Position numbers and translations under genes: made by a program. Below, in pieces: positions 953-63,758 of a DNA stretch of 64,000 bases; positions within the stretch are counted from its first letter, which is position 1; each line of letters starts with the position of its first letter. Below the pieces are notes generated by a model. That model did not search any database and was not told the origin of the DNA. It was given only the letters and a program-made list of their open reading frames with translations. The stretch comes from a plasmid, in sequence record NZ_CP084013.1; one strand, given 5' to 3'.

Positions 953-982
953 TGCTACACTGAATGTGGCCACATAAAAAAA
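953..982 (+). promoter_or_regulatory. degenerate copy of the recurrent promoter-like motif (TGCTACACTGAATGTGGCCACATAAAAA) upstream of parA
   Basis: About 20/26 matches to the TGTTATACTGAATATATCCACATAGA consensus seen at five other sites; lies 57 bp upstream of the parA ATG. Confidence 0.4.
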
Positions 983-1038
983 GCGCGTCCCACGCCTCCA
1001 CCTTGGCGGCGGAAAACGTGAACAGAGGAGAAAACAGC

Positions 1039-1701
1039 ATGCTGAAAAGCACGATTCTTGTCGCGGTCGCCGACATCAAAGGCGGCGTCGGAAAAACGAC
1101 GACAGCCATGCTCATCGCCGGATGCCTCGCCCGACGCGGCGAACACGTCACGGTTCTGGACGCCGACAACACCGGTGGCGCGACGCTCTGGGACGAATAC
1201 GTGCGAATCGAGGACGATCGTCGTCGCAAAGAAGACGAAGCCAACGGGACTCCGCACAAACCCTACAAGCTGGGTTTCGACGTGATCCAAACCAATGACG
1301 TGATCCTCGGAATGCCCGACAGGATTCGCGAACGCTACAAAGGATGGGTCATCATCGACACGCCTCCATCCGATGCGGGAACGGTGCAGACGGCACTCCA
1401 GGCGGCCGACGTGTCAATCATCCCCTGCCAGCCGTCCATCAGCGATTTGAGCCATGCAGGGAAAACCTATGCGGCCGCCAGAAACGGCATCATCCTGCTC
1501 ACGCGAGTGAAAGCGCGAACCAAACTCGCGCGTGACGCAGTGAAACAATTGGATGAGCTGGAGGCAACACGATTCGAAACGGTCATCCACGAGAGGGAAG
1601 CCATCAAGAATCTGTACGGAACCAACCAGATAGACAACAGGGATTACGCTTCCGTCACCCAAGAGCTCATTGACCTCGTCAAACAGTTCGGCATCGAGTA
1701 G
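1039..1701 (+). CDS. parA: ParA/Soj-family partition ATPase
   Basis: Deviant Walker A KGGVGKTT near the N-terminus, size about 220 aa, RBS GAGGAG before the ATG. Confidence 0.8.
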   Translation: MLKSTILVAVADIKGGVGKTTTAMLIAGCLARRGEHVTVLDADNTGGATLWDEYVRIEDDRRRKEDEANGTPHKPYKLGFDVIQTNDVILGMPDRIRERYKGWVIIDTPPSDAGTVQTALQAADVSIIPCQPSISDLSHAGKTYAAARNGIILLTRVKARTKLARDAVKQLDELEATRFETVIHEREAIKNLYGTNQIDNRDYASVTQELIDLVKQFGIE

Positions 1702-1711
1702 GAGTTGAAAC

Positions 1712-2095
1712 ATGGTAAAGAATATCAACAGCGCTTTCGGACGCGGCCTGCAGGACACTCGCGACATGGGGCGTCGGCCTCTCCTATCCGAACCCCCCGA
1801 ACCGAAGATGACGGTCGAGGCTCCCGAGCAGAAAGCAGTCTCTGAAGCAATCCCGGAAGATCATGAGACGAAAACGAATGAAGCATCCGGGAGGGCCGGC
1901 CGGAGGAAGCCCGTGTATTCGTTCGACCGGAGGCTCGGCACGAACCTGACGGATGAAAACTATCTCGCGCTGCGAATCAAGTCGGTCGAGACGAACATGA
2001 CCACGCAGGCTCTTCTTAACGCTGCGGTGGAACAATGCTTCGTCAACGGAGGACTTGACATGGAGCTGGCCAGAAAATACGCGCAGACCCGCTGA
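1712..2095 (+). CDS. putative small centromere-binding partner of ParA (RHH/ParG-like)
   Basis: 127-aa gene immediately after parA; disordered N-terminus and a C-terminal beta-alpha-alpha-like segment (VYSFDRRLGTNLTDENYLALRIKSVE...); followed by a terminator. Confidence 0.4.
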   Translation: MVKNINSAFGRGLQDTRDMGRRPLLSEPPEPKMTVEAPEQKAVSEAIPEDHETKTNEASGRAGRRKPVYSFDRRLGTNLTDENYLALRIKSVETNMTTQALLNAAVEQCFVNGGLDMELARKYAQTR

Positions 2096-2100
2096 CACAA

Positions 2101-2137
2101 AAAGAGACTCGGCAGTATCCGAGTCTCTTTTTTCTTT
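2101..2137 (+). terminator. rho-independent terminator
   Basis: Perfect hairpin AAAGAGACTCGG-CAGTAT-CCGAGTCTCTTT followed by TTTCTTTT. Confidence 0.6.
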
Positions 2138-2217
2138 TCCCGACTTCCACCGCTTTCACGCTGAGACTCCGGATAGTCTGACACTAGATAACACGTTCAG
2201 ATTCTCAAGGAGACGAA

Positions 2218-3432
2218 GTGGCACGAAAAGCATCCGTTGAATCTCCAATGGACATCACCGAAGACAAACGGAAGAACGAAGTCGAACTGACGGCAATCAA
2301 ACGCGCCATGCGAAACACCCGCTGGTGGAAAGTTTTCATCACCGTGTTCATGATCGCCGGAATCGTCGCTCCCGTCATCAGCATTCACGCAATCAGCACG
2401 CTGCAGGACATGGGTTCCATGTTGAGCGCGAAATACAAGGAGATCAGCGTAGACAAACCAGGGAAACAGGCAGCCTTGGCGTCCGTCAACAAATGGTTGG
2501 ACACAAACAAAGGACCATTCCGTTACGGGACCACGAACCTGTTATGGGATTCGGCGACAAAAGTCGGATCCAGTGACGAGGACACCGGAACAGGAAAGGA
2601 ACATACCGACTGGTGGAGCCACCAGTTCTCCCTGACCGACCTGTCCGACGGATCCACCCGCGACGTAACCCAGCTCATTTCATGGAAGAACAACGTGGCC
2701 ACCGCCGTGGGAGAGCCAACAGTGCTGCCGTTGAAAGCAAGCGGCGCTGGCGGAGCCCAATCCTATACGCCATCCGGATACTCTCGCATCGACCAGGCGT
2801 CCAGCTTCCAGAACGTCGTCAACGCTTGGGCGAAAGCCTACATCGGGAAAGACAGCAACGCGTTCACCGTGCTGGTCGGGGACCCGAACAGCGAGCACGC
2901 CTACCAGCCAGCAGCCATCGGAACATTCAAAAACGTGAGCATCAACTGGCTTGTGGAGTGCGACAAGAACGGGCAATCCGTACCAAAGGAACAATCCAGC
3001 GACACGCCTCCCTATGCTGCGGCGTCGATCAGCATCACATTCGAACCGTATGCCGCGATGCAAGACAGTTCCGATAAGGGAAGCGACACGTCATCTTCGG
3101 ACAACACCGGCGGCTCGACCGTCAAGACGAACATCACCGTACTGGTCAAGAACCCTACATCCGGCAACGCGAAGATCATCGACTGGGGAGCGGATGGCAG
3201 CGTCAGGACGTTGAGACCCTATGCGAACGCACTGAACAAAAGCGACGTGACCTCGGCGAACTCCGACGACGAGACCGGCGGCACCGATTCCGCCGGGACC
3301 ACATCGCAGGACACCCAGTCCGACGATTCCACCGCCGACGGTTCCAAGGCATCATCGGGCAACGGCACGTCGGACAACACCTCAGACGGCACATCGTCGG
3401 ACGGTACGGCATCCGACAGCCAAAACAACTAA
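2218..3432 (+). CDS. membrane protein with Ser/Thr/Asp-rich C-terminal tail
   Basis: GTG start after AAGGAGA RBS; one N-terminal TM segment (VFITVFMIAGIVAPVI); low-complexity S/T/D-rich C-terminus. Confidence 0.5.
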   Translation: MARKASVESPMDITEDKRKNEVELTAIKRAMRNTRWWKVFITVFMIAGIVAPVISIHAISTLQDMGSMLSAKYKEISVDKPGKQAALASVNKWLDTNKGPFRYGTTNLLWDSATKVGSSDEDTGTGKEHTDWWSHQFSLTDLSDGSTRDVTQLISWKNNVATAVGEPTVLPLKASGAGGAQSYTPSGYSRIDQASSFQNVVNAWAKAYIGKDSNAFTVLVGDPNSEHAYQPAAIGTFKNVSINWLVECDKNGQSVPKEQSSDTPPYAAASISITFEPYAAMQDSSDKGSDTSSSDNTGGSTVKTNITVLVKNPTSGNAKIIDWGADGSVRTLRPYANALNKSDVTSANSDDETGGTDSAGTTSQDTQSDDSTADGSKASSGNGTSDNTSDGTSSDGTASDSQNN

Positions 3433-3442
3433 GGAGACCATC

Positions 3443-3591: not shown

Positions 3592-4584
3592 GTGGCATCG
3601 AGAAAAAACAAGACCGGCATAACCGTCGCCGGCATCCTTGGCGGCTTGGCCATCGTGCTCATAACCATCATCGTCATCATCCAAACCGGAGTATGGGCCA
3701 CGGTCGCCCCACAATTCGGGTTGCCTGCAATAACCAGCATCAGTCAGATACTTCCGAGCGAAGACTCCATGCAGAAAACAAACATCGGCTTGGGGTTGAA
3801 AAAACCGGACCTGTCGAAAAACGAAGGCCAGATCAAAGACGGTCTGACCTCCTCGGGGAACACCGGAGAAAAGGATTCCACGAACACGGATATGGGAGCG
3901 AGCGGACTGCCGGCTTCCGCAGCAAGCCCCATGAGCGTGTCCGAAGCCATCACAGCCGCCCGGAACCTCCCGACCGAAACACCCCATACGAAGGGCTACA
4001 ATCGCGCCGAGGATTTCGGGGACTGGCAGAACAGCGACCAGCTTTGCGGATACGGAACCACCCGCGACTACATTCTCAACCGTGACCTGACCAATCCGGT
4101 CATGGACTCCAATTGCAAGGTGCAATCCGGGACACTGCATGACCCCTATACGGGCCAGACCATCAACTTCCGGAAGAGCGTCGTGAAGAATGGGAAGACC
4201 GTCAGCGGAGACAGCACCGCAGTGCAGATCGACCATGTGGTCGCCTTGAACGACGCATGGGCCTCCGGCCTGTGGAAGAACTCAAGGAAAAACGATCGCG
4301 TGAAATACGCAAACGATCCGGACGTGCTGCTTGCCAGCCAAGGGGATGCCAACAATGCGAAAAGCGAGGGCATCAACCTGTACGGGAGCGGTGTCCCCAA
4401 GAAGTCCGTCGGACGATGGGCCGCATCCACCCCATCCGTCTGGCTGCCAAGCAACAGCGGCTACCAGTGCTCCTACATGGCCAAGCGCGTCTACATCAAA
4501 GACAAGTATGGACTTTCCATGAGCAGCTGGGAGAAAAGCGAGACGATTGGATTCCTGCAGCAATGCCAGGCGAAAGAAAATTAA
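3592..4584 (+). CDS. secreted/membrane-anchored HNH endonuclease (DUF1524 / GmrSD C-terminal-domain type)
   Basis: N-terminal TM/signal segment; motif IDHVVALNDAWASG...N typical of DUF1524 HNH nucleases. Confidence 0.55.
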   Translation: MASRKNKTGITVAGILGGLAIVLITIIVIIQTGVWATVAPQFGLPAITSISQILPSEDSMQKTNIGLGLKKPDLSKNEGQIKDGLTSSGNTGEKDSTNTDMGASGLPASAASPMSVSEAITAARNLPTETPHTKGYNRAEDFGDWQNSDQLCGYGTTRDYILNRDLTNPVMDSNCKVQSGTLHDPYTGQTINFRKSVVKNGKTVSGDSTAVQIDHVVALNDAWASGLWKNSRKNDRVKYANDPDVLLASQGDANNAKSEGINLYGSGVPKKSVGRWAASTPSVWLPSNSGYQCSYMAKRVYIKDKYGLSMSSWEKSETIGFLQQCQAKEN

Positions 4585-4808: not shown

Positions 4809-4840
4809 TATGCCTGTTAAACTGAATATATCTACATAGA
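4809..4840 (+). promoter_or_regulatory. recurrent promoter-like motif copy (TATGCCTGTTAAACTGAATATATCTACATAGA)
   Basis: Extended -10 like TGTTAAACT; ATG of ORF 4843 lies immediately downstream. Confidence 0.5.
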
Positions 4841-4842
4841 GT

Positions 4843-5136
4843 ATGGAACAGCAAGGAGATCCATTGTCTGAAGACAAGACCGAAAAACTCGGCGACTTTA
4901 TGCGCCGCGTAAAAGACGACACGGTGCTCAACCTGTACTTCGTCACGGAGACCGGGTCGAAAAGAATACCGACACCACTGTTCGGCAACCCCACTGCGGA
5001 ACAGCTGAGGGACAACAGGTACCTGCAATCCCAGGTGGTCGCATCCCGCAAGCACTATTGCAATGAGGTGATCAGCAGCGGATGGACCGTCCACGTGGAT
5101 ACCAAGTTCGATCAGGAGGCTTTCGAGAATGCCTAG
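4843..5136 (+). CDS. hypothetical protein (97 aa)
   Basis: ORF directly behind a motif copy; no recognisable domain. Confidence 0.4.
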   Translation: MEQQGDPLSEDKTEKLGDFMRRVKDDTVLNLYFVTETGSKRIPTPLFGNPTAEQLRDNRYLQSQVVASRKHYCNEVISSGWTVHVDTKFDQEAFENA

Positions 5137-5242: not shown

Positions 5243-5274
5243 ATGCCTGTTATACTGAATATATCCACATAGAT
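5243..5274 (+). promoter_or_regulatory. recurrent promoter-like motif copy (consensus: TATGCCTGTTATACTGAATATATCCACATAGA)
   Basis: Extended -10 TGTTATACT; RBS GAAGGAAGA and ATG 5295 downstream. Confidence 0.55.
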
Positions 5275-5294: not shown

Positions 5295-5585
5295 ATGAGC
5301 CACGCAGCCAACACAAGCATCCAAGACATCCAAAACGGAATAGGAGACTTCGTGCTCCGTCCCGAAGCAGACCGCAACAGCCTCGACGGCTATATGAAAC
5401 TACCCGAACAAAACCGTCTCAACACCTGCTCCCATGGATGTCTCATCGAACAAGGCGTGAAATCACACATGACCTACCACGATGACGGCAGCGGAGACTG
5501 GACACTCTGCAAAGACGACCCGGACTATGGGCAGTATGTCGCAGCAGGCAATCCAACGAGCGTTCCCGCGAATCCCGTCATCTGA
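5295..5585 (+). CDS. hypothetical protein (about 96 aa)
   Basis: ATG 8 nt after GAAGGAAGA; the ORF track extends the frame to a TTG at 5277. Confidence 0.4.
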   Translation: MSHAANTSIQDIQNGIGDFVLRPEADRNSLDGYMKLPEQNRLNTCSHGCLIEQGVKSHMTYHDDGSGDWTLCKDDPDYGQYVAAGNPTSVPANPVI

Positions 5586-5602
5586 ATAGAAAGAACGAAA
5601 TC

Positions 5603-6355
5603 ATGTCCATTAAGTCAACGCAAGCGAAACAACAGCTCAGAAACAGCGATGGCACATTCGCCAACGAGAACAAGAAGGCGGGACTTCCCTCCAACGACAT
5701 GATTCAGCGTGCCTCCAAATTGTTAGCGAAAAGCTCGGCGACCGTTGATGAGCCGATCATCAAGCCCTCCGTGAAGTCGGAAGGCTACATGGGATCCACC
5801 GCCATCACCGGCGGCAAATACGATGCCAGTCGCAGTCCGGCGGAAAACGCGAAACTCATGCGCGCGGACATCAAAGCATTGCGGAAGAACGGTCAACTTC
5901 CAAAAGATTGGAAGATCGGAGTCCGAACAAGTACAGGTTCCGCAAGTTGGAGAGCCCGATTCACCATCCAACTGCCGGAAGGCGAATCCTCCACATACGT
6001 GCCGACCCACGCCGAATATATGGCTGCGGATTCCGAAGACCGGATCATCGGTCCGGAACACAGGGCCGGACGAGGAATCATCGAAGCTCATGGAGGAAGC
6101 GCCTCCTCCGACGAATGGGATGAAACAGCACGGCGAATCAACCAGAAAATCCAGAACAACGAACAGCTGACCGTAGAAGAGCAAGCCTGCGTCATCGAAA
6201 CTCCAAAAGTCCGCAACGCAAAGAAACTCTGCCAGCAGGTCGGCGACCAGTACACGTATCAGAACAACAACGCCATGGTCGACTACTTCGACACGGACGG
6301 ATACGTCACCGTGCAAGCCGTGACCGGAATCAAGAAACCAGAAAACAATGAGTGA
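5603..6355 (+). CDS. hypothetical protein with N-terminal R-x-SDG-x-FA-x-E-x-K motif
   Basis: 250-aa ORF; N-terminus resembles that of the partial ORF at 63771. Confidence 0.45.
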   Translation: MSIKSTQAKQQLRNSDGTFANENKKAGLPSNDMIQRASKLLAKSSATVDEPIIKPSVKSEGYMGSTAITGGKYDASRSPAENAKLMRADIKALRKNGQLPKDWKIGVRTSTGSASWRARFTIQLPEGESSTYVPTHAEYMAADSEDRIIGPEHRAGRGIIEAHGGSASSDEWDETARRINQKIQNNEQLTVEEQACVIETPKVRNAKKLCQQVGDQYTYQNNNAMVDYFDTDGYVTVQAVTGIKKPENNE

Positions 6356-6728
6356 ACCAGTACGAAACTTCAAACAAATCATTCGGATCAAAGGCACCGG
6401 CGATGACGCTTACCCAAATCCCGGAACGTTGATGCTATGGGGAGACAACTGGACGTTGTTGGATTGGATCCGGCAACACACGGACTACAGCAAGGACACC
6501 AGAACAACCCCCGTTGACGTTGACGTGCTGACTCGGCTTCACGAGTATGCGACCGGTATCGCCAACCAGAACGGGCGCCATGATGTTCGACGTGGTGAGG
6601 CCGCGTGCATCGTCGCCGGAGTGGAATCCGTGCAATCCTATCTGCGACGCAACCCTGGCGTGGAACTCGAATTCGCATTGATTCAAACGGATTCGCATCC
6701 ATCAGCCCACATCGAAGAAGGAGCCTAA
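6348..6728 (+). CDS. hypothetical protein
   Basis: 126-aa ORF overlapping the stop of the previous gene (operon-like). Confidence 0.4.
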   Translation: MSEPVRNFKQIIRIKGTGDDAYPNPGTLMLWGDNWTLLDWIRQHTDYSKDTRTTPVDVDVLTRLHEYATGIANQNGRHDVRRGEAACIVAGVESVQSYLRRNPGVELEFALIQTDSHPSAHIEEGA

Positions 6729-6730
6729 TC

Positions 6731-6987
6731 GTGTCCGAGAAAATCGACCTGCAGCAGGAAGCATTGAATGCCTTGAAGGATGCAGGCCTTGGAAGTAACA
6801 GCCTCAGACAAGCATTCATCAAAGGTTATCGCGCTCACGCCTACCGTCAGCCCAGCCAGGAAGAGGAACATGTTGCGGCCGTCACGATGTCTGGACGCAT
6901 GCGTTCCATCTTCCACTTGGAAGAATCGGATGAAGACAATCTGACCAGCAAGTGTTCCTGCATCTATTCTGATATTCAAACCGCTTT
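6731..6987 (+). pseudogene. 5' part of a gene interrupted by an IS200/IS605 insertion (3' part resumes around 8381..8700)
   Basis: GTG start after GAAGGAG RBS; reading frame runs into the IS right-end hairpin; a coding-looking 100-aa C-terminal frame without a start resumes right after the IS left end. Confidence 0.35.
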
Positions 6988-7200
6988 GCTTGACATCCTC
7001 CCCCGCATGAATGCGGGGGATTCCCGAATCTTACGGTTCGGGTTTCTGTTCGCTACGACAAAACAAGAAAGGAGGGGACGCTAATGCGAGACCTTGGTTC
7101 CGGTTCTGCCGTCCTTGCAGACGCTAACCGCAAGCCCTGCGGCGAGGATGTTTTCGGCTGCGTTCAAATCCCTGTCATGGGTTGTTCCGCAGTCCGGGCA
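6988..7200 (-). ncRNA. predicted omega-RNA (guide-RNA scaffold) overlapping the tnpB 3' end and RE
   Basis: Inferred from the known TnpB architecture; RE hairpin present; not verified structurally. Confidence 0.3.
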
Positions 7201-8310
7201 CGTCCATGCCCTGACTTTGAGGCCGGGCATGCCCTTCGGCCCGGTCTTCGCCCCGCAGTGGGAGCAGATTTGCGTGCTCGGATAATACCTATCGATGGTT
7301 ATGAGCTGTCGCCCGTACCATTCGGCCTTGTATTCGAGCATTCGACGGAACTCCGACCATCCGGCGTCCATGATGCTTCCGTTCAGCCCGTTTTTCGCGG
7401 ACTGGCCGTTGGGGAGCCAATGGTTCGGATTGTCCGGGTCGGGTTTCGGCGCGCATCTTTTGGCCATGTTCTTCACGTTGAGGTCTTCGAGTACCACCGT
7501 TTGGTTCTCGCGGATTATCCTCGTGCTCAACTTGTGGAGGAAGTCACGGCGCATGTCCGTGATTCTGGCGTAGGTGCGGGCCACCTTGAGGGCGGCTTTC
7601 CGACGATTGTTGCTGCCTTTGGTTTTGCGGGACAGCGTCCGTTGCTCCCGTTCCAACCGTTCGGCGAGTTTCTTGTAGTGGCGTGGGTTCGCTATGGTCT
7701 CCCCGTCGCTGGTGACGGCGTAGCTGTCCACTCCCAAGTCGATTCCGATTGCGTTCCTTCGGGCGGGGAGAGGGCGGATGGTCTCCTCCACGAGGATGCT
7801 GACGTGCCATCGTCCGGCGGCGTCCAAGCTTACGGTCACGGTGCTCGGCTCCGTCTTGCGGGGCAGTGTTCTGGACCATCGTATCGGCAATGGTTCGCGC
7901 ATCTTGGCGAGCGTGAGTTCATTGCGTTTGGCGTCCCATTTGAACGCGCTTCGAGTGTATTCGGCGCTTCCGCCGTGGGATTTGGCCTTGAATCTCGGAT
8001 AGTCGCCGGTCTGCTTGAAGAAGTTGGAGAACGCCGTCTGCAAGTGTCTCAACGCCTGTTGCAGTGGCACGCAGGACACTTCGTTCATGTACGAGTATTC
8101 AGCTGTTTTCTTCCATTGGGTGAGCATGGCGCTGGTCTGGACGTAGGTGACGCTCCTGTGCTCCGCCGTCCATGCGACGGAACGGGCTTCCAACGCGAGA
8201 TTGTAGACCTTTCGGCAGCAGCCGACCGTGCGCCTGAGCAGTTGTTCCTGCTCGGGTGTCGGGTAGAAGCGGAACCTGTACGCCCGCTTGCATGCATGCC
8301 TTCTGACCAT
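7081..8310 (-). CDS. tnpB: TnpB (IS605 OrfB-family RNA-guided nuclease homologue)
   Basis: 409 aa; RuvC-like core with C-terminal zinc ribbon CSHCG...CPDCG; similarity to the other tnpB copies in the window. Confidence 0.85.
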   Translation of the reverse strand: MVRRHACKRAYRFRFYPTPEQEQLLRRTVGCCRKVYNLALEARSVAWTAEHRSVTYVQTSAMLTQWKKTAEYSYMNEVSCVPLQQALRHLQTAFSNFFKQTGDYPRFKAKSHGGSAEYTRSAFKWDAKRNELTLAKMREPLPIRWSRTLPRKTEPSTVTVSLDAAGRWHVSILVEETIRPLPARRNAIGIDLGVDSYAVTSDGETIANPRHYKKLAERLEREQRTLSRKTKGSNNRRKAALKVARTYARITDMRRDFLHKLSTRIIRENQTVVLEDLNVKNMAKRCAPKPDPDNPNHWLPNGQSAKNGLNGSIMDAGWSEFRRMLEYKAEWYGRQLITIDRYYPSTQICSHCGAKTGPKGMPGLKVRAWTCPDCGTTHDRDLNAAENILAAGLAVSVCKDGRTGTKVSH

Positions 8311-8380
8311 GTTTCACATTATATCATATCAATCTGTGAAAGGAGGACGGTTTGCTTCCTCCCCGCCCTAAAGGACAGGG

Positions 8381-8700
8381 TCTCCGCAAACCAAAAAAAA
8401 GATGACATACGTATCCGATTCGAAGGGAAAACGGTAGAAGTCGAATTCAATGACACAGCCCCGAAGCCACTGCAAGGCTTTACAGTCACCGCGCCCGTTC
8501 AGATTCTGGAACACAACACCGGATGCTGGTGGGAGAGAACAATCACGGCACGAATCAGAGACAGCTCAACCATTCCCGTCGTGCTGGATCACGTGTATTG
8601 GAATTGGATCACCGGCACACCCATGCACATTCATCTCGACGGCATTCAACGCATCCGGGTCATCGAAGACAAGCATCATCAAAGAGAGGAAAACAATTGA
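8381..8700 (+). pseudogene. 3' part of the gene split by the IS at 6988..8380
   Basis: Open frame with no start codon beginning exactly at the IS left-end boundary. Confidence 0.3.
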
Positions 8701-8703
8701 GCG

Positions 8704-9026
8704 TGAACCAACCGTTGACGGACAGCGAAGCCAGGAACATCTTCATAAACGGCGCGGAGGACTTCTATTCACTGTCGGCAAACCCGCAATTCTCCAACGT
8801 AGCCGAACTGTTTGACGCCTGGCTTACCGAGCATGATCGCCAACTGCTGGCCAAAACAGAAACCGAAGCAGGGAAACGAATCTCCAGCGAACTCAAACTC
8901 GAACATGCAAGCGACGCCCACGCCCGAACAGAACCATCCCGCGCATACATTCAAGGATGCAAGGCCGCGAGAAGCCTGCTCGAGGACGCCATCCGAGACA
9001 TGACGCAAGAACAAGGGACGCTATGA
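8704..9026 (+). CDS. hypothetical protein
   Basis: GTG after GAGGAA RBS; 107 aa. Confidence 0.4.
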
Positions 9027-10430: not shown

Positions 10431-10432
10431 GT

Positions 10433-14199: not shown

Positions 14200-14251
14200 G
14201 CTAACACCTCCGAATCTGCTAAACTGTTGTTAGCATGATTATAGCATAGAG

Positions 14252-50361: not shown

Positions 50362-50952
50362 TTAGAATTCCGGGTCGGTGCCGTCGCCGTTCGGATCCGT
50401 GCTGGCTGGCGTGGTCGTAGCCCACGGATCCATTGCGGGCTGTGAGGGTGCCGCAGGTTGCGCCGGTGTCTGTGCGGGAGCCTGTTGGCTGTAACCCTGC
50501 TGCTGGTAGTTGTTGTATGCGCCTTGCTGATAGCCGTTGTTCGGCTGCTGGTATCCGCCGCCGTAATTGTTCTGCCGGTAGCCGTTGCCGTTGGACTGTT
50601 GGCCGCTGGTCTTCTGAAATTGCGCGACGCCGAACCGGAGGCTGGGGCCAAGGTCGGTGACGATCATTTCAAGATTGCTGCGCTGTTGGCCGGTGTTCTT
50701 GTCCGTCCAGCTGTTGGTTTTCATGTATCCGGTGGCTACCACGCGCATGCCCTTATAGCAGGAGCGCATGATGTTCTGGGCAAGGTCTCCGAATGCGGCG
50801 CACCGCATGAATACGGCATCCCCATCCACTGTCTGCCCGTTACGGTCACGTCGACGCGTATTGTGCGCGATGGTGAAAGTGACCGTATCTCCCCTCTGCT
50901 CGGGGTTTGCGGTGATATTGCCTACGAGTGTGAGTGTCGGCTCTCCTGCCAT
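50362..50952 (-). CDS. ssb: single-stranded DNA-binding protein
   Basis: OB-fold N-terminus (LVGNITANPE...), Gly/Gln/Asn-rich linker, acidic C-terminal tail DGTDPEF. Confidence 0.85.
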   Translation of the reverse strand: MAGEPTLTLVGNITANPEQRGDTVTFTIAHNTRRRDRNGQTVDGDAVFMRCAAFGDLAQNIMRSCYKGMRVVATGYMKTNSWTDKNTGQQRSNLEMIVTDLGPSLRFGVAQFQKTSGQQSNGNGYRQNNYGGGYQQPNNGYQQGAYNNYQQQGYSQQAPAQTPAQPAAPSQPAMDPWATTTPASTDPNGDGTDPEF

Positions 50953-50966
50953 GGGTTCCTGGTCTC

Positions 50967-50998
50967 CTTATTTTTTCTATGTGAACATATTCAGTATA
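50967..50998 (-). promoter_or_regulatory. recurrent promoter-like motif copy driving ssb (rc: TATGCTTGTTATACTGAATATGTTCACATAGA)
   Basis: Extended -10 TGTTATACT; RBS AAGGAGA and ssb ATG downstream on the minus strand. Confidence 0.55.
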
Positions 50999-51152
50999 AC
51001 AAGCATATACGAAGAAAAGGCATGTCGGATAAGCATCAGGACAGAGGAGAAAAACCTGACACCAATCCGACATACCCCTTTTAGCAGGATGGGCTCACTC
51101 CACTACGGCGGAATGAGCCCATCAAGGTTTCTATCCGATCAGCGTGACCGTC

Positions 51153-54128: not shown

Positions 54129-54398
54129 ATCGTCTCCTCTGATAAGAAGGATATTTTGTCGCCAGAGATATTCACTGGACTCTTGCGGTTTTTACTGTAA
54201 CGTCAAATCTTGTAATTAACCGGTTTTTTATTGAAATTGACCGATATTTTTTGTGAGCGGCCACCTTGCCGTTGCGCTTGCAAGCTCATACCATTGGATG
54301 CACTCTGAAATTGTCCACGAAACAAGGCCTATCGGCGACCGTGTATTGGAAGCACGGTTCAGCCTGACAGTCAACGACATAGTATAAGGAAAATACAA

Positions 54399-55427
54399 AT
54401 GAACGAGAAAGAAGGACCTATGAACATGAACGTCACGCCACCGGTTGAGCCGGTGACGGAATTCGAAGTCCCCCTGCCTCCGGATCGTAAGCGTCCGAAG
54501 TGGCTGGTTCCGTTGATTGCGGGGAGTACTGCCGTCGTTGTTTTAGCGGCTGTCGGCACCGGTGGATACCTGTATTGGAACCATGATCGGTTGACGGCGG
54601 CTTCAGAGGAATGCGCCACCTCATACGACAGGGCGGTGAAGGCGCGGAAGAAGCTGACGGAGTATCTGGAGTCGGATGCGGTGAAGACCGCAATCAGGGT
54701 CAAGGATTCGGAGGTCAAGGACGCGAAAACGGTCGGGACGTTGGCTTCGACGGTGAAGGCTGTCGAGAAGACGAAGACCGATATCCCCGAATGCCCGGCG
54801 GATGGGTTGAAGGACATCAAGGCCGTGACCGCGCGGCTCGACAAGACCGCGACCGCGTATGAGAAGACCGTGAACGAGGTCAGGGGCAAGGCGAATGCGG
54901 TCAACGCCTCGAAGACCGACAAGACCGTCGCCGACGCGACCAAGGTCCTGGACGACTCCAAGGGCAGGGTGAAGGACGACAAGGTTCGCACCGCATTGGA
55001 GAACGCCATCAAATCGAAGGACGGGAAGGCGATCTCGGACGCCATGAAGGCGGTCAACGACTCCATCAAGGCGAAGTCGGATGCGGACGCGAATGCCAGG
55101 GCCGAAAAGGAGAAGCAGGCGGCGGAGAACACGGCCCAGGCGCCGGACAACGGCTCCTACACGGGCGGAACAACCGGAGGATACACCGGATACACCGGTG
55201 GTGGCTACACGCAATCCCAGGGCGGCGGCTACACGTACACTCCACAGCAGTCCACAGGTGGTTCGACCGGCGGCGGTTATACGCCGACGCCACAGCCGCA
55301 GCCACAGCAGCCTTCCCAGGGCGGTGGCAACGGAGGCGGTTCCACGGGAGGGGGCGACGGATATGAAAATATGTGTTTCGCATATCCCACTGACGGTTCG
55401 CCCGCAATCCAGGTTCCCTGCAGTTAA
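54399..55427 (+). CDS. membrane-anchored coiled-coil protein with Gly/Tyr/Thr-rich repeats (GGYTGYTGGGYT) and C-terminal Cys pair
   Basis: N-terminal TM; Lys/Ala-rich helical region; architecture parallels 33914..34891. Confidence 0.5.
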   Translation: MNEKEGPMNMNVTPPVEPVTEFEVPLPPDRKRPKWLVPLIAGSTAVVVLAAVGTGGYLYWNHDRLTAASEECATSYDRAVKARKKLTEYLESDAVKTAIRVKDSEVKDAKTVGTLASTVKAVEKTKTDIPECPADGLKDIKAVTARLDKTATAYEKTVNEVRGKANAVNASKTDKTVADATKVLDDSKGRVKDDKVRTALENAIKSKDGKAISDAMKAVNDSIKAKSDADANARAEKEKQAAENTAQAPDNGSYTGGTTGGYTGYTGGGYTQSQGGGYTYTPQQSTGGSTGGGYTPTPQPQPQQPSQGGGNGGGSTGGGDGYENMCFAYPTDGSPAIQVPCS

Positions 55428-56452: not shown

Positions 56453-57505
56453 TTAGCGCGAACGTCTCCGATTGTATCCCCGCACAACGGTGCCATCCGC
56501 TTTCCGGTACGGATCGACATGAATCTCCCCACCCGGTTCCGGCATGCCGGCGGCAATCCGCTTGGCTGCAGCACGCATCTGCTCACTGCGAATCCGATCA
56601 GTTTCAGCTTGCTCGGCTTCAGCAAGATCAGCAGAGTCCTCCAAAAGCGGCGCATTCTCTCCCCAATACTCATGCCATTCGTCGGAACAATCTAGGTCGA
56701 CTTCAGAGAGGAGTCGCTGTGCAAGTGTCCAGCACTGTTCTTTGTTTCTGCCTCCAGCTCTGGTATACGTTGCTAGATATTCCGCTTTTTTGCTATCTGG
56801 TATGATTTTCGTGTCATGCCCTTGGTCTCTACGTTCCGCAATCCGGCTGTTATCCCGCAATAAACCCAAATCAGGAGTGTGATGACGCATGATTGTTTCT
56901 ATATCATAGAGATCTTTGCCGTTTCGATTTTCACGGGACAGACCGTTGAGTTTTTCCGCAAGCTGAGCATCGATATCCATCATCCTGGCGGGAGCCATAT
57001 CGAAACCCATGCTTTGGAATATCTCTCGCATGTCGTTGTCCATACGGTATTCAGCATCCGGCAGATGGTCACCTAGGTCGGGTGATGCTTCAAAGTTGAT
57101 GGTGGCGAACCTGATTCCCATGTAGTCTAGGTGGACGCTTAGCGTATCCAACTGGATTCCTGCCGGTGTATGTTTCCTCTCTGCGTGTTCAAACGAACCA
57201 GCGAATCCTTGCCAACCTTCCTGAAGCTTCTTGGCGAATGACTCCTCAAACTCTTCTTCGGAACCCGAGTAAGCCGTATCTATATCACGGGATACTCTCG
57301 ATTCAGACAACGGATACCGCAACGAGATAGCGGAACCTCCTTTGAGGTAGGCTCCATCTGGAATCATCTGTCCCAGCACCCCGGCGATGAAGCTCTTCCT
57401 GAAGGTTTTTGCTTTTGCCGTGTCTGAAAGGCGTATAGTCTGCCTGTCGATCAGCTGTTTAAGTCGCTTAAAGGAATTTGGTCGTTTTGGTTCATTCGAT
57501 CCCAT
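56453..57505 (-). CDS. abiEii: AbiEii/AbiGii-family nucleotidyltransferase toxin (type IV TA / abortive infection)
   Basis: NTase signature YLKGGSAISLRYPLSESRVSRDIDTAY; 350 aa; 14-nt overlap with the upstream abiEi-like gene. Confidence 0.65.
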   Translation of the reverse strand: MGSNEPKRPNSFKRLKQLIDRQTIRLSDTAKAKTFRKSFIAGVLGQMIPDGAYLKGGSAISLRYPLSESRVSRDIDTAYSGSEEEFEESFAKKLQEGWQGFAGSFEHAERKHTPAGIQLDTLSVHLDYMGIRFATINFEASPDLGDHLPDAEYRMDNDMREIFQSMGFDMAPARMMDIDAQLAEKLNGLSRENRNGKDLYDIETIMRHHTPDLGLLRDNSRIAERRDQGHDTKIIPDSKKAEYLATYTRAGGRNKEQCWTLAQRLLSEVDLDCSDEWHEYWGENAPLLEDSADLAEAEQAETDRIRSEQMRAAAKRIAAGMPEPGGEIHVDPYRKADGTVVRGYNRRRSR

Positions 57506-58106
57506 ATTCCGCGCCGACCTTTCTTAAAAAATCCTTGATTCTCGGATATCTTTGCGCAGCGTCATCCAGTACCGTGCGACGTTTGTCATCATCCAGTATC
57601 GGCATGGAGGAAACAATGGCATCCTTCAACGACTGGATAGGCATGCCTTTGTATTTGGAGCGCGTCTTCTTCTTGGTGACGACCCATTTCACGGAGAGCT
57701 GGGGATATCGGCGTGTGGGAACCGCAATATAGAACCCCGGTTCGCCCACGTCGCCTAATTCCATGAACTCCAGTACGCTTGGCCCCCAGAGGAATGCGTC
57801 TTTCCCTGCTTTCGCGAGATATCTGGCGGTTTCGCATACGTCCCAATCGATTTTGTCATCGTCCGTATACCAGACGTATACGCCTCTGGTTCCGTTTTCC
57901 ACGTCAGGGTTGTCTTTGGCCCAGTGACGCAGGGTTGAGGCTTCGACTCCGGCCTCCCGGGCGGCCCACACCGGTATGTTTCCAGCCCACTTGCGCGCTA
58001 TGGGTAGCAGTTTTTGTTCCAGTTTCTTCATGCTTAATATTTTACCACGCTTCATTACATAAGAAGCGGTAATGAAGCGTGATGAAAAACGATGATAAGA
58101 CTGCAA
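57492..58106 (-). CDS. abiEi: AbiEi-family antitoxin/transcriptional regulator-like protein
   Basis: 204-aa protein immediately upstream of and overlapping abiEii; N-terminal wHTH-like region. Confidence 0.55.
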   Translation of the reverse strand: MQSYHRFSSRFITASYVMKRGKILSMKKLEQKLLPIARKWAGNIPVWAAREAGVEASTLRHWAKDNPDVENGTRGVYVWYTDDDKIDWDVCETARYLAKAGKDAFLWGPSVLEFMELGDVGEPGFYIAVPTRRYPQLSVKWVVTKKKTRSKYKGMPIQSLKDAIVSSMPILDDDKRRTVLDDAAQRYPRIKDFLRKVGAEYGIE

Positions 58107-60324: not shown

Positions 60325-60864
60325 TTACTCCGCGAGTTTCCAAGTCCGGCTCCTTTCCAAGACGAGATGCCGCTGGGTCAGTTCGGAAAGCCGGTATGCG
60401 AACTGGTAGACCGCGTTCAACGAATCGTACAGGGCGAACTTCTCCGATTCGCTTACGGCGTCGTTCAGGTCGTCGGCGAGGTCGGCGTACGCCTGACCGA
60501 TGGCGTCGGGACGGTTTTCCACGTACACGATTCCGTTCTTTTCGACGTCCACTTCGACGCAGTCCATCTCCATGTCCACTACCAGCATGTAGACGAACGC
60601 CTCGTCGGGCAGATAGGCCAGCGGGCGCACGTCCGAGATGACGTTCTTTTCCGTGACCGTGGTCGTGCAGATGACCGGCATGTCGCAGGCGGGGGCGAAC
60701 GGTTCGCGCGGGTCGTCTAGAATCCCCGCGTAATCGACCATGCAGCGGGCGGCGTGATGCCAGTCGCATGGCGTGAAAACGTCGATGAACACGCCCGTCC
60801 TGACGTCGGGTGGAATGCTCAGGAACACCTCTCTGGCGACCGTCTCAAGTTTCCTGTCCCCCAT
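60325..60864 (-). CDS. highly acidic hypothetical protein (180 aa)
   Basis: D/E-rich; start MGDRKLE overlaps the upstream gene end. Confidence 0.4.
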   Translation of the reverse strand: MGDRKLETVAREVFLSIPPDVRTGVFIDVFTPCDWHHAARCMVDYAGILDDPREPFAPACDMPVICTTTVTEKNVISDVRPLAYLPDEAFVYMLVVDMEMDCVEVDVEKNGIVYVENRPDAIGQAYADLADDLNDAVSESEKFALYDSLNAVYQFAYRLSELTQRHLVLERSRTWKLAE

Positions 60865-62402: not shown

Positions 62403-62691
62403 TCTTGTGGTCGCGGACGATGAAGATCATCCAGCCGAAGCACGGGAGCATCCGGTATTCGCCGGACCGGGTCAACGCGGCCGCCAGGCGTTCCGCGCCG
62501 GGGCGGGTGGTCCATTCCCGTGAATCCTCGTCGTAGTCCTCGGCGATCCAACCCTTCTTCAACAGGCCGTAATGCGCCTTCTTCCACGCCCAGCTGACGA
62601 TCGCGCCGAACAGATTGCCCGTCAGATACAGGAGCAGGATTCCCAGTATGATCGCGAACGGGGTGAGCACGCCCCACCAGTACCCGTCCAT
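62374..62691 (-). CDS. small membrane protein
   Basis: Start MDGYWW; one TM helix. Confidence 0.35.
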   Translation of the reverse strand: MDGYWWGVLTPFAIILGILLLYLTGNLFGAIVSWAWKKAHYGLLKKGWIAEDYDEDSREWTTRPGAERLAAALTRSGEYRMLPCFGWMIFIVRDHKNERHDEKRN

Positions 62692-63032
62692 CAGAACCGC
62701 CCCAACCGGTGCAGGGCCTCGGCCGAATGGATGCGGGCCTGTTCGCCGCCCGCGCCCTCCGCGGCGTTGACGGCCGTCCCGTTCTCGGCCGGCGAGGCGA
62801 ACATGGGTCGGCGCAGCTCCCCGTACTCCAGCTCGTAATCGGTCGGATCGTGTTGGGCGGCGAGCCGGGCCAATTCCCTGACCTCCTCGCCGGACAGGAT
62901 GATCTGCGCGGTGTCCAGGCCGTCGAGCAATTGGCTTATCGTCCAATCCCCCGTCGCGGGATCCCGCCACGCTTTGCACCATTCGCCCAGATATTCGAAA
63001 TCCTCCGGCGGATGCATGTAGTCGAATGCCAT
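62691..63032 (-). CDS. hypothetical protein
   Basis: Start MAFDYMHPP. Confidence 0.35.
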   Translation of the reverse strand: MAFDYMHPPEDFEYLGEWCKAWRDPATGDWTISQLLDGLDTAQIILSGEEVRELARLAAQHDPTDYELEYGELRRPMFASPAENGTAVNAAEGAGGEQARIHSAEALHRLGRF

Positions 63033-63034
63033 GA

Positions 63035-63391
63035 TCAGTTCCTTTCCGTGGGATCCGGGTCCGGATCCCATCCGCGTATGCGTGCGATGAGCCGGCAGAC
63101 GCCGGCCGGCATGAGCAGTATGAAAAACGTGGCGGCGGCGGCCTGCGAGATGGCGGTCATGATGCGGATGCCGGACAGGAGCCGCAGCAGGAGCGCGCCG
63201 CCCAGGGTGGCGAGGGCGCCGAACGCCATGAGCAGGAGCGCCATGGCGAGGCTGGCTGCCAGCAGTCCCGGCTCCACGCCCGCCGCCGGCCGGGGCTCCC
63301 CCATGTGTCGGGATGATGCGCCGTGCCTCATCGTCGTCCGCCTTTCACATGCCGCCGGCGTCCGGGCTGTCCGATATAGGAGAGCGTCCAT
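63035..63391 (-). CDS. membrane protein
   Basis: Ala/Leu-rich TM segments. Confidence 0.3.
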   Translation of the reverse strand: MDALLYRTARTPAACERRTTMRHGASSRHMGEPRPAAGVEPGLLAASLAMALLLMAFGALATLGGALLLRLLSGIRIMTAISQAAAATFFILLMPAGVCRLIARIRGWDPDPDPTERN

Positions 63392-63429
63392 TCCCCGGCG
63401 TCCCGCGTACGGTCGAGTGAATTTTCAAC

Positions 63430-63562
63430 GTTTGCGTTTTCGTTGTTCGTTGTCGTGTTTGGTGTCCGTCTTGTCGCCTGTTTCTTTTCCGGCGAAGGCG
63501 AGCACTATCGTGCAGATGAGGCACGTGATGAGGATGAGCGTGGTTCCTGGGTCGATTGCCAT
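63430..63562 (-). CDS. very small membrane protein (44 aa), first gene behind the minus-strand motif promoter
   Basis: MAIDPGTTLILITCLICTIVLAFAGKE...; not in the ORF track (under 60 aa). Confidence 0.25.
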
Positions 63563-63622
63563 CAGGCTCGCTGCCCTGTTGTTTGATGTTTTCCGAGCAT
63601 GATTGGTGCCTTCTACGAAAAT

Positions 63623-63654
63623 TTTATGTGGACTAATTCAGTATAACAGGTATT
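63623..63654 (-). promoter_or_regulatory. recurrent promoter-like motif copy (rc: ATACCTGTTATACTGAATTAGTCCACATAAAA)
   Basis: Extended -10 TGTTATACT on the minus strand; heads the minus-strand gene array 63562..58100. Confidence 0.5.
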
Positions 63655-63725
63655 GCCGATTTCGCGACATCACGGCTTCTCGCCAAAACGGGAGGCCGGA
63701 CCCCTAGAATTGTCTCCGAACGACA

Positions 63726-63758
63726 ATATGCCTGTTATGCTGAATATGTCCACATAGA
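63726..63758 (+). promoter_or_regulatory. recurrent promoter-like motif copy (ATATGCCTGTTATGCTGAATATGTCCACATAGA), divergent from the copy at 63623..63654
   Basis: RBS GAAGGAGAG and ATG 63771 downstream. Confidence 0.55.

What the first reader, a model, noticed from the sequence alone, without database searches (positions are those of the whole stretch)
953..63758. Recurrent ~30-bp promoter/operator-like motif in front of parA, ssb and several unknown gene arrays
Six copies of a block with consensus ATGCCTGTTATACTGAATAT(A/G)TCCACATAGA are present, each followed within 5-60 nt by an RBS and a start codon:
- 953..982 (+), degenerate, in front of parA
- 4809..4840 (+), in front of ORF 4843
- 5243..5274 (+), in front of ORF 5295 and a 4-gene array
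- 50967..50998 (-), in front of ssb
- 63623..63654 (-), in front of a roughly 12-gene minus-strand array
- 63726..63758 (+), in front of ORF 63771
The block contains a textbook extended -10 element (TGnTATACT), so it can act as a promoter without a -35 box. The invariant ~20 nt downstream (GAATATRTCCACATAGA) would then span the transcription start and early leader, which is where a repressor operator or an RNA element would sit. The last two copies form a divergent pair 70 bp apart. Six copies in 64 kb across functionally different genes (partition, SSB, small unknowns) suggests a co-regulated set belonging to one mobile element, for example plasmid or ICE early/leading-region genes.
Basis: seen in the sequence. 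Interest (0 to 1): 0.75.

Follow-up and report, generated by a model that had tools for sequence, protein, structure and literature searches.

The report
Known bifidobacterial megaplasmid promoter motif
The repeated ~30-bp block is real, but it is the already published promoter motif of the pMP7017 family of Bifidobacterium conjugative megaplasmids: a -10-type promoter joined to a conserved box at the predicted transcription start, in front of about a quarter of the plasmid's genes, with the factor that reads the box still unknown.

Summary
All six copies exist at the stated places (0 expected by chance). Each lies between genes and points at a start codon 13-71 nt downstream. The window is a Bifidobacterium longum megaplasmid of the pMP7017 family (94-97% identical to PLSDB records). 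Dineen et al. 2024 (PMC10832533) already described this motif: a 34-bp sequence overlapping the -10 of highly transcribed genes, 19 copies, a 'presumed pMP7017-specific regulon' of 56 genes, proposed as a transcription-factor site and also present in pMP7017 homologues. The finding is a correct rediscovery.

What I add:
- Whole-plasmid scans give 27 and 25 copies, on both strands all round the plasmid, so this is not a leading-region feature.
- One copy precedes the tmRNA/tRNA array.
- The motif has two blocks: TGnTATACTG (extended -10) and GTCCACATA at predicted +1..+9.
- The second block is the most conserved part. Orthologous promoters are 92% identical there against about 30% in the flanks.
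- Leaders are short, A-rich and unstructured.
- The window's XRE/ImmA-type repressor is an unlikely reader.
- A resemblance to the actinobacterial DnaA box is noted but fits imperfectly.

Novelty: already known. The regulator is still open.

The parts
953..978 (+). Motif copy 1 (degenerate), core -15..+11. The -10 is TACACT at 956-961, preceded by TGc. The box GGCCACATA is at 968-976. It lies in front of parA.
   Evidence: PWM 27 bits; orthologous copy in pDS1566 at 137694(-)
1039..1701 (+). parA (ParA/MinD-type ATPase), the first gene after copy 1
   Evidence: Pfam AAA_31/CbiA/ParA
4815..4840 (+). Motif copy 2. The -10 is TAAACT at 4818-4823; the box ATCTACATA is at 4830-4838.
4867..5136 (+). 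Small ORF of unknown function after copy 2. The start is probably TTG 4867 after AAGGAG, in frame with ATG 4843.
   Evidence: pMP7017 orthologue annotated with a TTG start
5248..5273 (+). Motif copy 3, the best match. TGTTATACT gives an extended -10 at 5248-5256; the box ATCCACATA is at 5263-5271.
   Evidence: 0 mismatches to the consensus
5295..9026 (+). Array of small plus-strand genes of unknown function behind copy 3 (5295-5585, 5603-6355, 6348-6728, 6605-7084, 7084-8700, 8523-9026). It runs on to an IS200/IS605 insertion at 9975.
   Evidence: no Pfam hits
50976..51001 (-). Motif copy 4. The -10 TATACT is at 50998-50993; the box GTTCACATA is at 50986-50978. It lies in front of ssb.
50362..50952 (-). 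ssb (single-strand DNA-binding protein). The pMP7017 ssb (B7017_p0198) is listed in the published regulon.
   Evidence: Pfam SSB
63623..63648 (-). Motif copy 5. The -10 TATACT is at 63645-63640; the box GTCCACATA is at 63633-63625. It drives the minus-strand array of about 10-12 small genes down to roughly 56450.
63733..63758 (+). Motif copy 6, divergent partner of copy 5 and 72 bp away. The -10 is TATGCT at 63736-63741; the box GTCCACATA is at 63748-63756. It lies in front of the ORF starting at 63771.

Best explanation
The blocks are copies of the 34-bp promoter motif of the pMP7017 family of Bifidobacterium conjugative megaplasmids. Each copy is a promoter for the host's principal sigma factor. 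It relies on an extended -10 element (TGnTATACT); a -35 element is optional. Transcription is predicted to start 7 nt after the -10, at the G of a second conserved block, GTCCACATA (+1..+9). This block is the right half of an imperfect dyad, TATGT-CC-ACATA. A short (about 21-36 nt), A-rich, unstructured leader with a Shine-Dalgarno sequence follows. I infer that the second block is a DNA site for a sequence-specific trans-acting protein that sits on the start site and sets the output of all these promoters together. That would make about 25 transcription units per plasmid one plasmid-specific regulon: ssb, parA, DNA methyltransferases, an exonuclease, the cas genes, the tmRNA/tRNA array and many small unknown genes. 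Shown here or in the literature: the copies, their position and orientation, the -10 signature, the family restriction, and transcription of the downstream genes. Inferred: the exact start site, protein binding to the box, and the sign of regulation. I lean towards a plasmid-encoded repressor that damps intrinsically strong promoters only partly.
For: Identity. The window is 94-97% identical to B. longum megaplasmids and 85% to pMP7017. The published consensus AWAYATGY-TATACT-GAATATGTCCACATAAAAWA overlaps the -10 of six highly expressed genes, has 19 copies, covers 56 genes, and is stated to occur in pMP7017 homologues (PMC10832533).
Copy number. PWM scans give 6 copies in the window, 25 in pDS1566 and 27 in pMP7017. 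Shuffled sequence gives none.
Promoter signature. T-7 is present in 52/52 copies, A-11 in 51/52 and TG in 44-46/52. A TTG-type -35 is present in only 12/27, 4/25 and 0/6 copies.
Box. Every position from +1 to +9 is conserved in at least 92% of the 52 copies; T+8 is 52/52. Seven orthologous promoter pairs between the B. breve and B. longum plasmids are 92% identical at +1..+9. The figures are 77% at -15..-6 and about 30% in the flanks.
DNA-level action. One copy precedes the tmRNA plus 23 tRNA genes. Leaders show no structure: mean MFE is -3.5 kcal/mol and z is +0.2. There is no Rfam hit.
Box without a promoter. A box lacking the -10 block is conserved downstream of dnaB in both plasmids.
Trans factor. 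A repB promoter fragment that, by my coordinates, overlaps a motif copy is 1.6-fold more active without the plasmid, and RepB does not bind it (PMC8313286).
Restriction. Among 72,556 plasmids the motif occurs only in the 5 Bifidobacterium megaplasmids. It occurs in none of 50,697 phage genomes.
Against: No binding protein has been identified. The motif-bearing genes include the most highly transcribed plasmid genes in log phase. That fits poorly with tight repression in the established state and would also fit an activator or no factor at all. Start sites were inferred from RNA-seq coverage, not mapped at single-base resolution for these promoters. One orthologous chromosomal copy in B. biavatii and B. 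ramosum hints that a host factor, or RNA polymerase alone, may be enough. Copies may share sequence partly through common descent: a copy with a Shine-Dalgarno-like leader sits in front of RNA genes.
Confidence: 0.6

Rival explanations
1. No dedicated factor. The whole -15..+11 stretch is an optimised promoter-plus-initial-transcribed-sequence cassette. It spread through the plasmid by duplication and recombination, and is kept because it gives strong initiation, fast promoter escape and a good unstructured mRNA 5' end.
For: The best-matching copies belong to the most highly expressed genes. The T-1/G+1 pair fits the usual pyrimidine-purine start rule, and leaders are A-rich and unstructured. 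A copy with a Shine-Dalgarno-like leader precedes RNA genes, which suggests spread as a cassette. A chromosomal copy exists in plasmid-free species genomes.
Against: +1..+9 is more conserved than the -10 hexamer itself: at least 92% per position, and 92% against 77% in orthologue pairs. That is more than promoter-escape effects usually demand. A box without any -10 is conserved in both plasmids.
Confidence: 0.2
2. The box is a DnaA box. Positions -2..+7 read (A/T)TGTCCACA, 8 of 9 matches to the actinobacterial high-affinity box TTGTCCACA. On this reading the host initiator DnaA binds on the start site of about 25 plasmid promoters, and the plasmid carries a sizeable set of DnaA sites.
For: TTGTCCACA is the high-affinity box of M. 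tuberculosis and S. coelicolor (PMC4285127). The B. longum oriC uses TTGTCCACA, TTATCCACA and TTATTCACA among seven box types (PMC2430713). The window variants ATATCCACA and ATGTTCACA differ at box positions 3 and 5, which are the tolerated ones. A perfect TTATCCACA lies next to two more TCCACA repeats, including a full motif box, downstream of the plasmid dnaB.
Against: Box position 1 is A in 38/52 copies and T in only 4/52; position 2 is T in only 36/52. The two bases after the box (T+8 in 52/52, A+9 in 49/52) are conserved although DnaA should not need them. Canonical TT[AG]TNCACA sites are not enriched on the plasmids compared with shuffles. The published list of host genes changed by plasmid carriage does not include dnaA or dnaN.
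Confidence: 0.12
3. The conserved +1..+11 acts in the RNA. A shared 5'-terminal GUCCACAUAAA would be recognised by an RNA-binding protein, RNase or small RNA to control stability or translation.
For: The block would be the very 5' end of every transcript. The spacing to the -10 is fixed, and the distance to the start codon is tightly clustered at 21-36 nt.
Against: There is no conserved structure (z +0.2) and no Rfam family. One copy precedes tmRNA/tRNA genes rather than an mRNA. A box occurs without any promoter inside an operon. No complementary small-RNA candidate was seen: isolated reverse-complement copies are at chance level.
Confidence: 0.06
4. The block is the terminus of a repeated mobile element (MITE or IS end), or a single-strand (Frpo-type) promoter of a conjugative leading region.
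For: The window carries three IS200/IS605 copies. ssb and methyltransferase genes are typical leading-region cargo.
Against: Information content falls to zero outside -22..+13. There are no inverted repeats or partner ends, and every copy points at a gene start. Copies lie on both strands all round the plasmid, and no long hairpin includes the motif. The hairpins upstream of ssb end before the motif.
Confidence: 0.01

Closest known systems
34-bp motif of the 'presumed pMP7017-specific regulon' (Dineen et al. 2024, Microb Biotechnol 17:e14405, PMC10832533)
   Same: Same sequence (…TGYTATACTGAATATGTCCACATAAAA…), same position overlapping the -10 and within 60 bp of start codons, same plasmid family, and orthologous downstream genes such as ssb. 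The paper states that the motif also precedes comparable genes in pMP7017 homologues.
   Different: The window is a B. longum-type homologue. Its copies read TATGCC upstream of TG and CACATAGA rather than CACATAAAA. My scans find 27 copies in pMP7017 rather than 19, and they split the motif into an extended -10 and a +1..+9 box.
Global repressor operators of IncP-1 plasmids (KorA OA and KorB OB sites of RK2) and similar plasmid backbone regulons (own knowledge)
   Same: A short conserved site, possibly a dyad, is repeated at many promoters of one plasmid and overlaps core promoter elements. It ties replication, partition and establishment genes into one circuit built on intrinsically strong promoters.
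   Different: No cognate repressor gene has been identified here. The box is asymmetrically conserved and lies on the start site. Phylum, plasmid family and sequence are all different. Repression has not been shown.
Stoperators of cluster A mycobacteriophages (L5 gp71 repressor sites) (own knowledge)
   Same: An asymmetric site of about 13 bp in an actinobacterial mobile element, with 20-30 copies in short intergenic spaces, oriented with transcription.
   Different: Stoperators are mostly separate from promoters and block elongation. Here nearly every box is fused at fixed spacing to a -10 element. There is no sequence similarity.
DnaA box (TTGTCCACA / TTATNCACA)
   Same: 8 of 9 identity of positions -2..+7. 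Variants occur at the tolerated box positions. A perfect box lies next to a motif box near the plasmid dnaB.
   Different: The first two box positions are the least conserved. Conservation continues 2-4 nt past the box. There are no clusters at the promoters, and there is no published sign of DnaA titration.
Frpo/ssi single-strand promoters of conjugative leading regions (own knowledge)
   Same: They precede ssb and anti-restriction-type genes on a conjugative plasmid.
   Different: Frpo elements are long hairpins of several hundred nt, active in one transferred strand. These are 30-bp duplex promoters without hairpins, on both strands, all round the plasmid.

Membership tests
pMP7017-family 34-bp promoter motif (Dineen et al. 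2024) | Match to the consensus AWAYATGY-TATACT-GAATATGTCCACATAAAAWA | tested here: met
   5 copies with 0-3 mismatches over 26 nt, plus one degenerate copy. The same PWM recovers 27 copies in pMP7017 itself.
pMP7017-family 34-bp promoter motif (Dineen et al. 2024) | Carried by a pMP7017-type megaplasmid | tested here: met
   Window 47000-55000 is 94-97% identical to four B. longum megaplasmid records and 85% to pMP7017. The motif copies are orthologous to those of pDS1566.
pMP7017-family 34-bp promoter motif (Dineen et al. 2024) | Lies within about 60 bp upstream of a translation start and overlaps a -10 element | tested here: met
   From the predicted +1, start codons lie at +23 to +37 for five copies and +71 for parA.
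pMP7017-family 34-bp promoter motif (Dineen et al. 2024) | Absent from chromosomes and from other replicons | tested here: met
   Found only in the 5 Bifidobacterium megaplasmids of PLSDB and in no phage genome. Species-representative genomes give 39 scattered single hits, which is chance level. The one exception is an orthologous site in B. biavatii and B. ramosum.
Principal-sigma extended -10 promoter | TGn immediately upstream of a TAnnnT hexamer, with A-11 and T-7 most conserved | tested here: met
   TG in 44-46/52 copies, A-11 in 51/52, T-7 in 52/52.
Principal-sigma extended -10 promoter | Transcripts start 6-8 nt downstream of the hexamer | not testable with these tools
   Only RNA-seq-coverage-based start sites for pMP7017 are published. 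No base-resolution mapping exists for these promoters.
DnaA box | 9-mer TTGTCCACA / TTATNCACA with T at positions 1 and 2 | tested here: inconclusive
   Of 52 copies, 32 have one mismatch and one is a perfect match. However, position 1 is A in 38/52 and position 2 is T in only 36/52.
DnaA box | Conservation confined to the 9-mer | tested here: not met
   T+8 is conserved in 52/52 and A+9 in 49/52, beyond the box.
DnaA box | Bound by DnaA | not testable with these tools
   Needs EMSA or ChIP. The published host differential-expression list shows no dnaA/dnaN change.
Plasmid global-repressor operator (KorA/KorB type) | A cognate plasmid-encoded DNA-binding protein, usually autoregulated from a site-bearing promoter | tested here: inconclusive
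   Candidate only: a 215-aa HTH_3 regulator, 79% conserved, divergent from a motif-bearing promoter and outside the window. The ImmR-like protein in the window is disfavoured.
MITE / IS terminus | Conserved flanks, terminal inverted repeats, no bias relative to genes | tested here: not met
   No information outside -22..+13 in 161 unique copies. All copies point at gene starts.
Frpo-type single-strand promoter | Long imperfect hairpin, single orientation, confined to the leading region | tested here: not met
   Leaders are unstructured. Strand counts are 17+/10- and 10+/15- around the whole plasmids.

The most novel reading that the evidence does not exclude
The start-site box is read by the host replication initiator DnaA. 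It matches the actinobacterial DnaA box TTGTCCACA at 8 of 9 positions. A quarter of the megaplasmid's genes would then be wired to the host's replication-initiation state, and the plasmid would carry 25-30 DnaA sites. A second unexcluded reading is that one of the plasmid's many DNA methyltransferases marks the box. The promoters would then behave differently on newly transferred, hemimethylated DNA.
Probability: 0.12. Interest if true: 0.6.

Novelty: already known. Interest (0 to 1): 0.3.

Why it matters
pMP7017-type megaplasmids are reported in about 10% of gut microbiome samples, mostly from infants and mothers (abstract of PMC10832533). They are the only known conjugative plasmids of Bifidobacterium. 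One compact promoter module controls roughly a quarter of their genes, including ssb, partition, methyltransferase, CRISPR-Cas and tmRNA/tRNA loci. Identifying the factor that reads the GTCCACATA box would explain how the plasmid coordinates establishment and maintenance. The module is also a ready-made strong promoter for bifidobacterial genetic tools. As a discovery, the motif and this reading of it are already in the literature. What remains open is the regulator and the sign of control.

Tried and rejected
1. Chance or low complexity. Rejected: no matches in shuffles.
2. MITE or IS end. Rejected: flanks carry no information.
3. RNA element. No Rfam hit, and leaders are unstructured with z +0.2.
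4. Three-codon mini-ORF ATG-TCC-ACA-TAA/TAG across the box. An ATG, GTG or TTG is present in only 33 of 52 copies (my count from the 9-mer list). The ATG would also lie upstream of the predicted start. Dropped.
5. Alternative sigma factor or plasmid RNA polymerase. No sigma or RNAP gene is annotated on either whole plasmid. The A-11/T-7/TG signature is that of the principal sigma factor. The spacing of the two blocks (about 10 nt) fits no sigma-70-family promoter.
6. Sigma-dependent pause or Q-type antiterminator site. The T-7-equivalent position (+13) is not conserved.
7. Its own operator-like repeats differ completely between plasmids, while the box does not.
8. Their published sites are different repeats, and RepB does not bind its promoter region.
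9. LexA, MtrA and MmeI-type recognition sequences compared from memory: no convincing match. A search of the B. breve methylome paper found nothing on this plasmid.
10. More distant relatives, to test whether the box co-varies with the plasmid lineage. An SSB-based locus search returned only relatives 87-98% identical.

Full report
OBSERVATION

The repeated block is real. A search with the 26-nt consensus and up to 3 mismatches gives five copies: 4815-4840(+), 5248-5273(+), 50976-51001(-), 63623-63648(-) and 63733-63758(+). None of 100 shuffles gave any match. An HMM and a position-weight scan recover the same five plus the degenerate copy in front of parA (951-983). They find nothing else in the 64 kb. 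The parA copy aligns without gaps: CTGCTACACTGAATGTGGCCACATAAA.

All six copies lie between genes and point at a start codon. The last two form a divergent pair 72 bp apart. The genes behind them are as follows.
- parA (Pfam ParA/CbiA).
- Two arrays of small ORFs without Pfam hits.
- ssb (Pfam SSB).
- An ORF that runs off the end of the window.

One detail needs correcting. The ORF after the second copy more likely starts at TTG 4867, behind AAGGAG, than at ATG 4843. The orthologue in pMP7017 is annotated with a TTG start at the equivalent place.

WHERE THE WINDOW COMES FROM, AND WHAT IS ALREADY PUBLISHED

Window 47000-55000 is 94-97% identical to four Bifidobacterium longum megaplasmid records and 85% identical to pMP7017 of B. 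breve JCM 7017. pMP7017 is the first conjugative megaplasmid described in the genus.

Its transcriptome paper (Dineen et al. [quoted passage not shown] The paper makes these statements about it.
- There are 13 further copies within 60 bp of start codons, 19 in all.
- The copies are predicted to drive 56 genes, about 24% of coding capacity.
- It calls this a 'presumed pMP7017-specific regulon'.
- It proposes that the motif is a transcription-factor binding site that may inhibit or enhance transcription.
- The motif precedes comparable genes in pMP7017 homologues and is absent from bifidobacterial chromosomes.

The regulon list includes ssb and the methyltransferase behind it.

WHAT THE WIDER SCANS ADD

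I assembled two whole plasmids from the annotated records: pMP7017 and p1 of B. longum DS1566, called pDS1566 here. A weight-matrix scan finds 27 copies in pMP7017 and 25 in pDS1566. Shuffled plasmid sequence gives none.

Copies lie on both strands (17+/10- and 10+/15-) all round the replicons. The motif is therefore not confined to a leading region.

One copy stands divergently next to repB (pMP7017 120535+, pDS1566 189464-). It is followed not by a protein gene but by the tmRNA gene and 23 tRNA genes. This copy still carries the Shine-Dalgarno-like GAAAGAGG.

Distribution elsewhere is as follows.
- Among 72,556 plasmids, the motif occurs only in the five Bifidobacterium megaplasmids, at 12-17 places each by blastn.
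- None of 50,697 phage genomes has it.
- Species-representative genomes give 39 scattered single hits, which is chance level for a 16-base pattern in 596 Gb.
- The one exception is an orthologous chromosomal site in B. biavatii and B. ramosum. It reads TGTTATACTGGATGCGTCCACATA and lies upstream of a 275-aa membrane protein.
- IMG/VR holds many multi-copy contigs of 40-217 kb, evidently megaplasmid fragments filed as viral.

ANATOMY

In 161 unique copies, information content is zero beyond about -22 and +13 (numbered from the predicted start). This rules out a MITE or IS terminus. Within the motif there are two blocks.

Block 1 is TGnTATACTG (-15..-6). In the 52 copies of the two whole plasmids, T-7 is 52/52, A-11 is 51/52, TG is 44-46/52 and G-6 is 51/52. 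This is the signature of an extended -10 promoter for the principal sigma factor. A TTG-type -35 at 16-19 bp is present in only 12/27, 4/25 and 0/6 copies.

Block 2 is GTCCACATA. It starts 7 nt after the hexamer, where a purine preceded by a pyrimidine (T-1, G+1) fits a start site. Every one of its nine positions is conserved in at least 92% of the 52 copies, and T+8 is 52/52.

Seven orthologous promoter pairs between the B. breve and B. longum plasmids give a clear footprint.

| Region | Ungapped identity |
|---|---|
| Flanks | about 30% |
| -15..-6 | 77% |
| -5..-1 | 71% |
| +1..+9 | 92% |
| +10..+13 | 61% |
| Beyond +13 | 37% |

The box at the start site, not the -10 hexamer, is the most constrained part. 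The consensus around it, TATGT-CC-ACATA, is a perfect 5-2-5 dyad, with the left arm (69-94%) weaker than the right (94-100%).

Downstream, the leaders are 51% A and unstructured. For +1..+50 the mean MFE is -3.5 kcal/mol and z is +0.2, and none of the 52 falls below -2. They reach a start codon 21-36 nt from +1 in most cases. Rfam finds nothing in the window.

HOW IT MOST LIKELY WORKS

Each copy is a strong promoter for the host's principal sigma factor. The associated genes are transcribed, and the best copies belong to the most highly expressed plasmid genes. The extra, very strongly conserved box on the start site is best explained as a DNA site for a sequence-specific protein that sets the output of all these promoters together. 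Four observations support this.
- The box is more conserved than the promoter hexamer.
- It works in front of RNA genes as well as mRNAs.
- No RNA structure accompanies it.
- A full box without any -10 block (TGTCCACATAAAAAA), next to two further TCCACA repeats, is conserved downstream of the plasmid dnaB in both plasmids.

There is also one experimental hint. A repB promoter fragment was 1.6-fold more active without the plasmid, and RepB does not bind it (PMC8313286). By my coordinates that fragment overlaps the motif copy at 120535.

The sign of regulation is not settled. Strong expression in log phase argues against tight repression. I lean towards a plasmid-encoded repressor that damps intrinsically strong promoters only partly, as in the global regulons of IncP-type plasmids (own knowledge). 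I rate the whole statement at 0.6. The identity and promoter part is close to certain. Protein binding to the box is roughly even odds or slightly better.

WHO READS THE BOX

Its divergent intergenic region has its own repeats, yACATrGACGCA and TGCGTC. In pMP7017 the same region has quite different repeats (GTGTTCCTCGTCGCA…), and the protein is only 59% identical. The motif box, by contrast, is the same in both plasmids. This module is therefore an unlikely reader.

A better but unproven candidate lies outside the window. It is a 215-aa HTH_3 regulator, 79% identical between the plasmids. It is divergently placed next to a motif-bearing promoter of a DUF2815/Enc34-type ssDNA-binding protein gene.

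No sigma factor or RNA polymerase gene is annotated on either plasmid.

A LEAD NOT IN THE LITERATURE: THE DnaA BOX

Positions -2..+7 read (A/T)TGTCCACA. That is 8 of 9 matches to TTGTCCACA, the high-affinity DnaA box of M. tuberculosis and S. coelicolor and one of seven box types at the B. longum oriC. The window variants ATATCCACA and ATGTTCACA differ at the tolerated box positions 3 and 5. The promoter-less box near dnaB sits beside a perfect TTATCCACA.

The fit is imperfect in four ways.
- Box position 1 is A in 38/52 copies and T in only 4/52, and position 2 is T in only 36/52.
- The two bases after the box are nearly invariant.
- Canonical boxes are not enriched on the plasmids.
- The published list of host genes changed by plasmid carriage does not include dnaA or dnaN.

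I rate this reading at about 0.12. It is a resemblance, not a membership.

OTHER RIVALS
- An intrinsic promoter cassette with no dedicated factor: 0.2.
- An RNA-level leader signal: 0.06.
- A mobile-element end or a single-strand promoter: about 0.01.
- Methylation of the box by one of the plasmid's several DNA methyltransferases is unexcluded and could not be tested.

VERDICT

Novelty is 'already known' and interest is modest (0.3). It rests on the still unidentified regulator, and on the finer anatomy and the DnaA-box lead given here.

Noticed in passing
window 9975-11602 (+); 12865-14698; 48642-50254 (-): Three IS200/IS605 units (Y1 TnpA plus TnpB). The one at 48642-50254 sits between ssb and the N6_N4 methyltransferase gene 47380-48645. 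Those two genes are adjacent in pDS1566, so the insertion splits the motif-driven ssb-methyltransferase operon.
   Followed up: partly
window 16989-19809: An ImmR/ImmA-like module: a 190-aa Cro/CI-type HTH protein, an M78 peptidase and a zinc-ribbon protein on the minus strand, with a divergent 102-aa gene. The intergenic region 19406-19520 holds repeats yACATrGACGCA and TGCGTC. The equivalent region of pMP7017 has different repeats.
   Followed up: partly
window 63600-63420 (-): Behind the minus-strand motif copy there is a 12-codon upstream ORF (MLGKHQTTGQRA). Its stop overlaps the start (TGATG) of a ~45-aa hydrophobic peptide gene. The uORF is conserved in pMP7017 as MLGKHQTTRQQT.
   Followed up: no
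window 51017-51123 (-): Two tandem, very stable hairpins (-66.5 kcal/mol, z -9.1). The second is followed by a U-rich run. They lie between the 991-aa surface-protein gene and the ssb promoter. They are probably terminators that insulate the ssb promoter.
   Followed up: partly
L042 4082-4105 (B. biavatii contig30) and L034 (B. ramosum): A chromosomal, orthologous copy of the core motif (TGTTATACTGGATGCGTCCACATA). It lies upstream of a 275-aa membrane protein, next to a long ORF on the opposite strand whose function I did not check. It is the only convincing non-plasmid occurrence found.
   Followed up: partly
pMP7017 about 60350-60400; pDS1566 about 155590-155640 (L165 5590-5640): The sequence gTTATCCACAaTCCACAacaacTGTCCACATAAAAAAc is a perfect DnaA-type box plus two TCCACA repeats, the last being a full motif box without any -10. 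It lies in a short intergenic gap one gene downstream of the plasmid dnaB and is conserved in both plasmids.
   Followed up: partly
pDS1566 183300-189470 (L165 31311-39108); pMP7017 120535 onwards: A motif copy, back to back with the repB promoter region, precedes a tmRNA gene and 23 tRNA genes. On the opposite strand its TTATAC region reads as a TATAAT-like -10 for repB.
   Followed up: partly
IMG/VR loci L044-L123: Many contigs of 40-217 kb with several motif copies are filed as viral genomes. The megaplasmids carry much phage-like cargo: tail-tip lysozyme, DUF2815/Enc34 SSB, WhiB, Lar, tRNAs and tmRNA.
   Followed up: no
window 56453-58106 (-): An AbiEii-type nucleotidyltransferase toxin gene, with an upstream 204-aa gene that has only a sub-threshold MerR-type HTH match and may be its antitoxin partner. 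The pair lies at the distal end of the minus-strand array.
   Followed up: no
L163 37570-39966 (pDS1566 87570-89966): Five tandem 480-bp genes, four of which encode the identical protein WP_338715618.1, lie inside a motif-driven array of small unknown genes.
   Followed up: no
window 3592-4584 (+): A GmrSD_C/DUF1524-type nuclease gene. In pMP7017 its operon is preceded by a weak motif copy (37510-), which is missing from the B. longum-type sequence.
   Followed up: no
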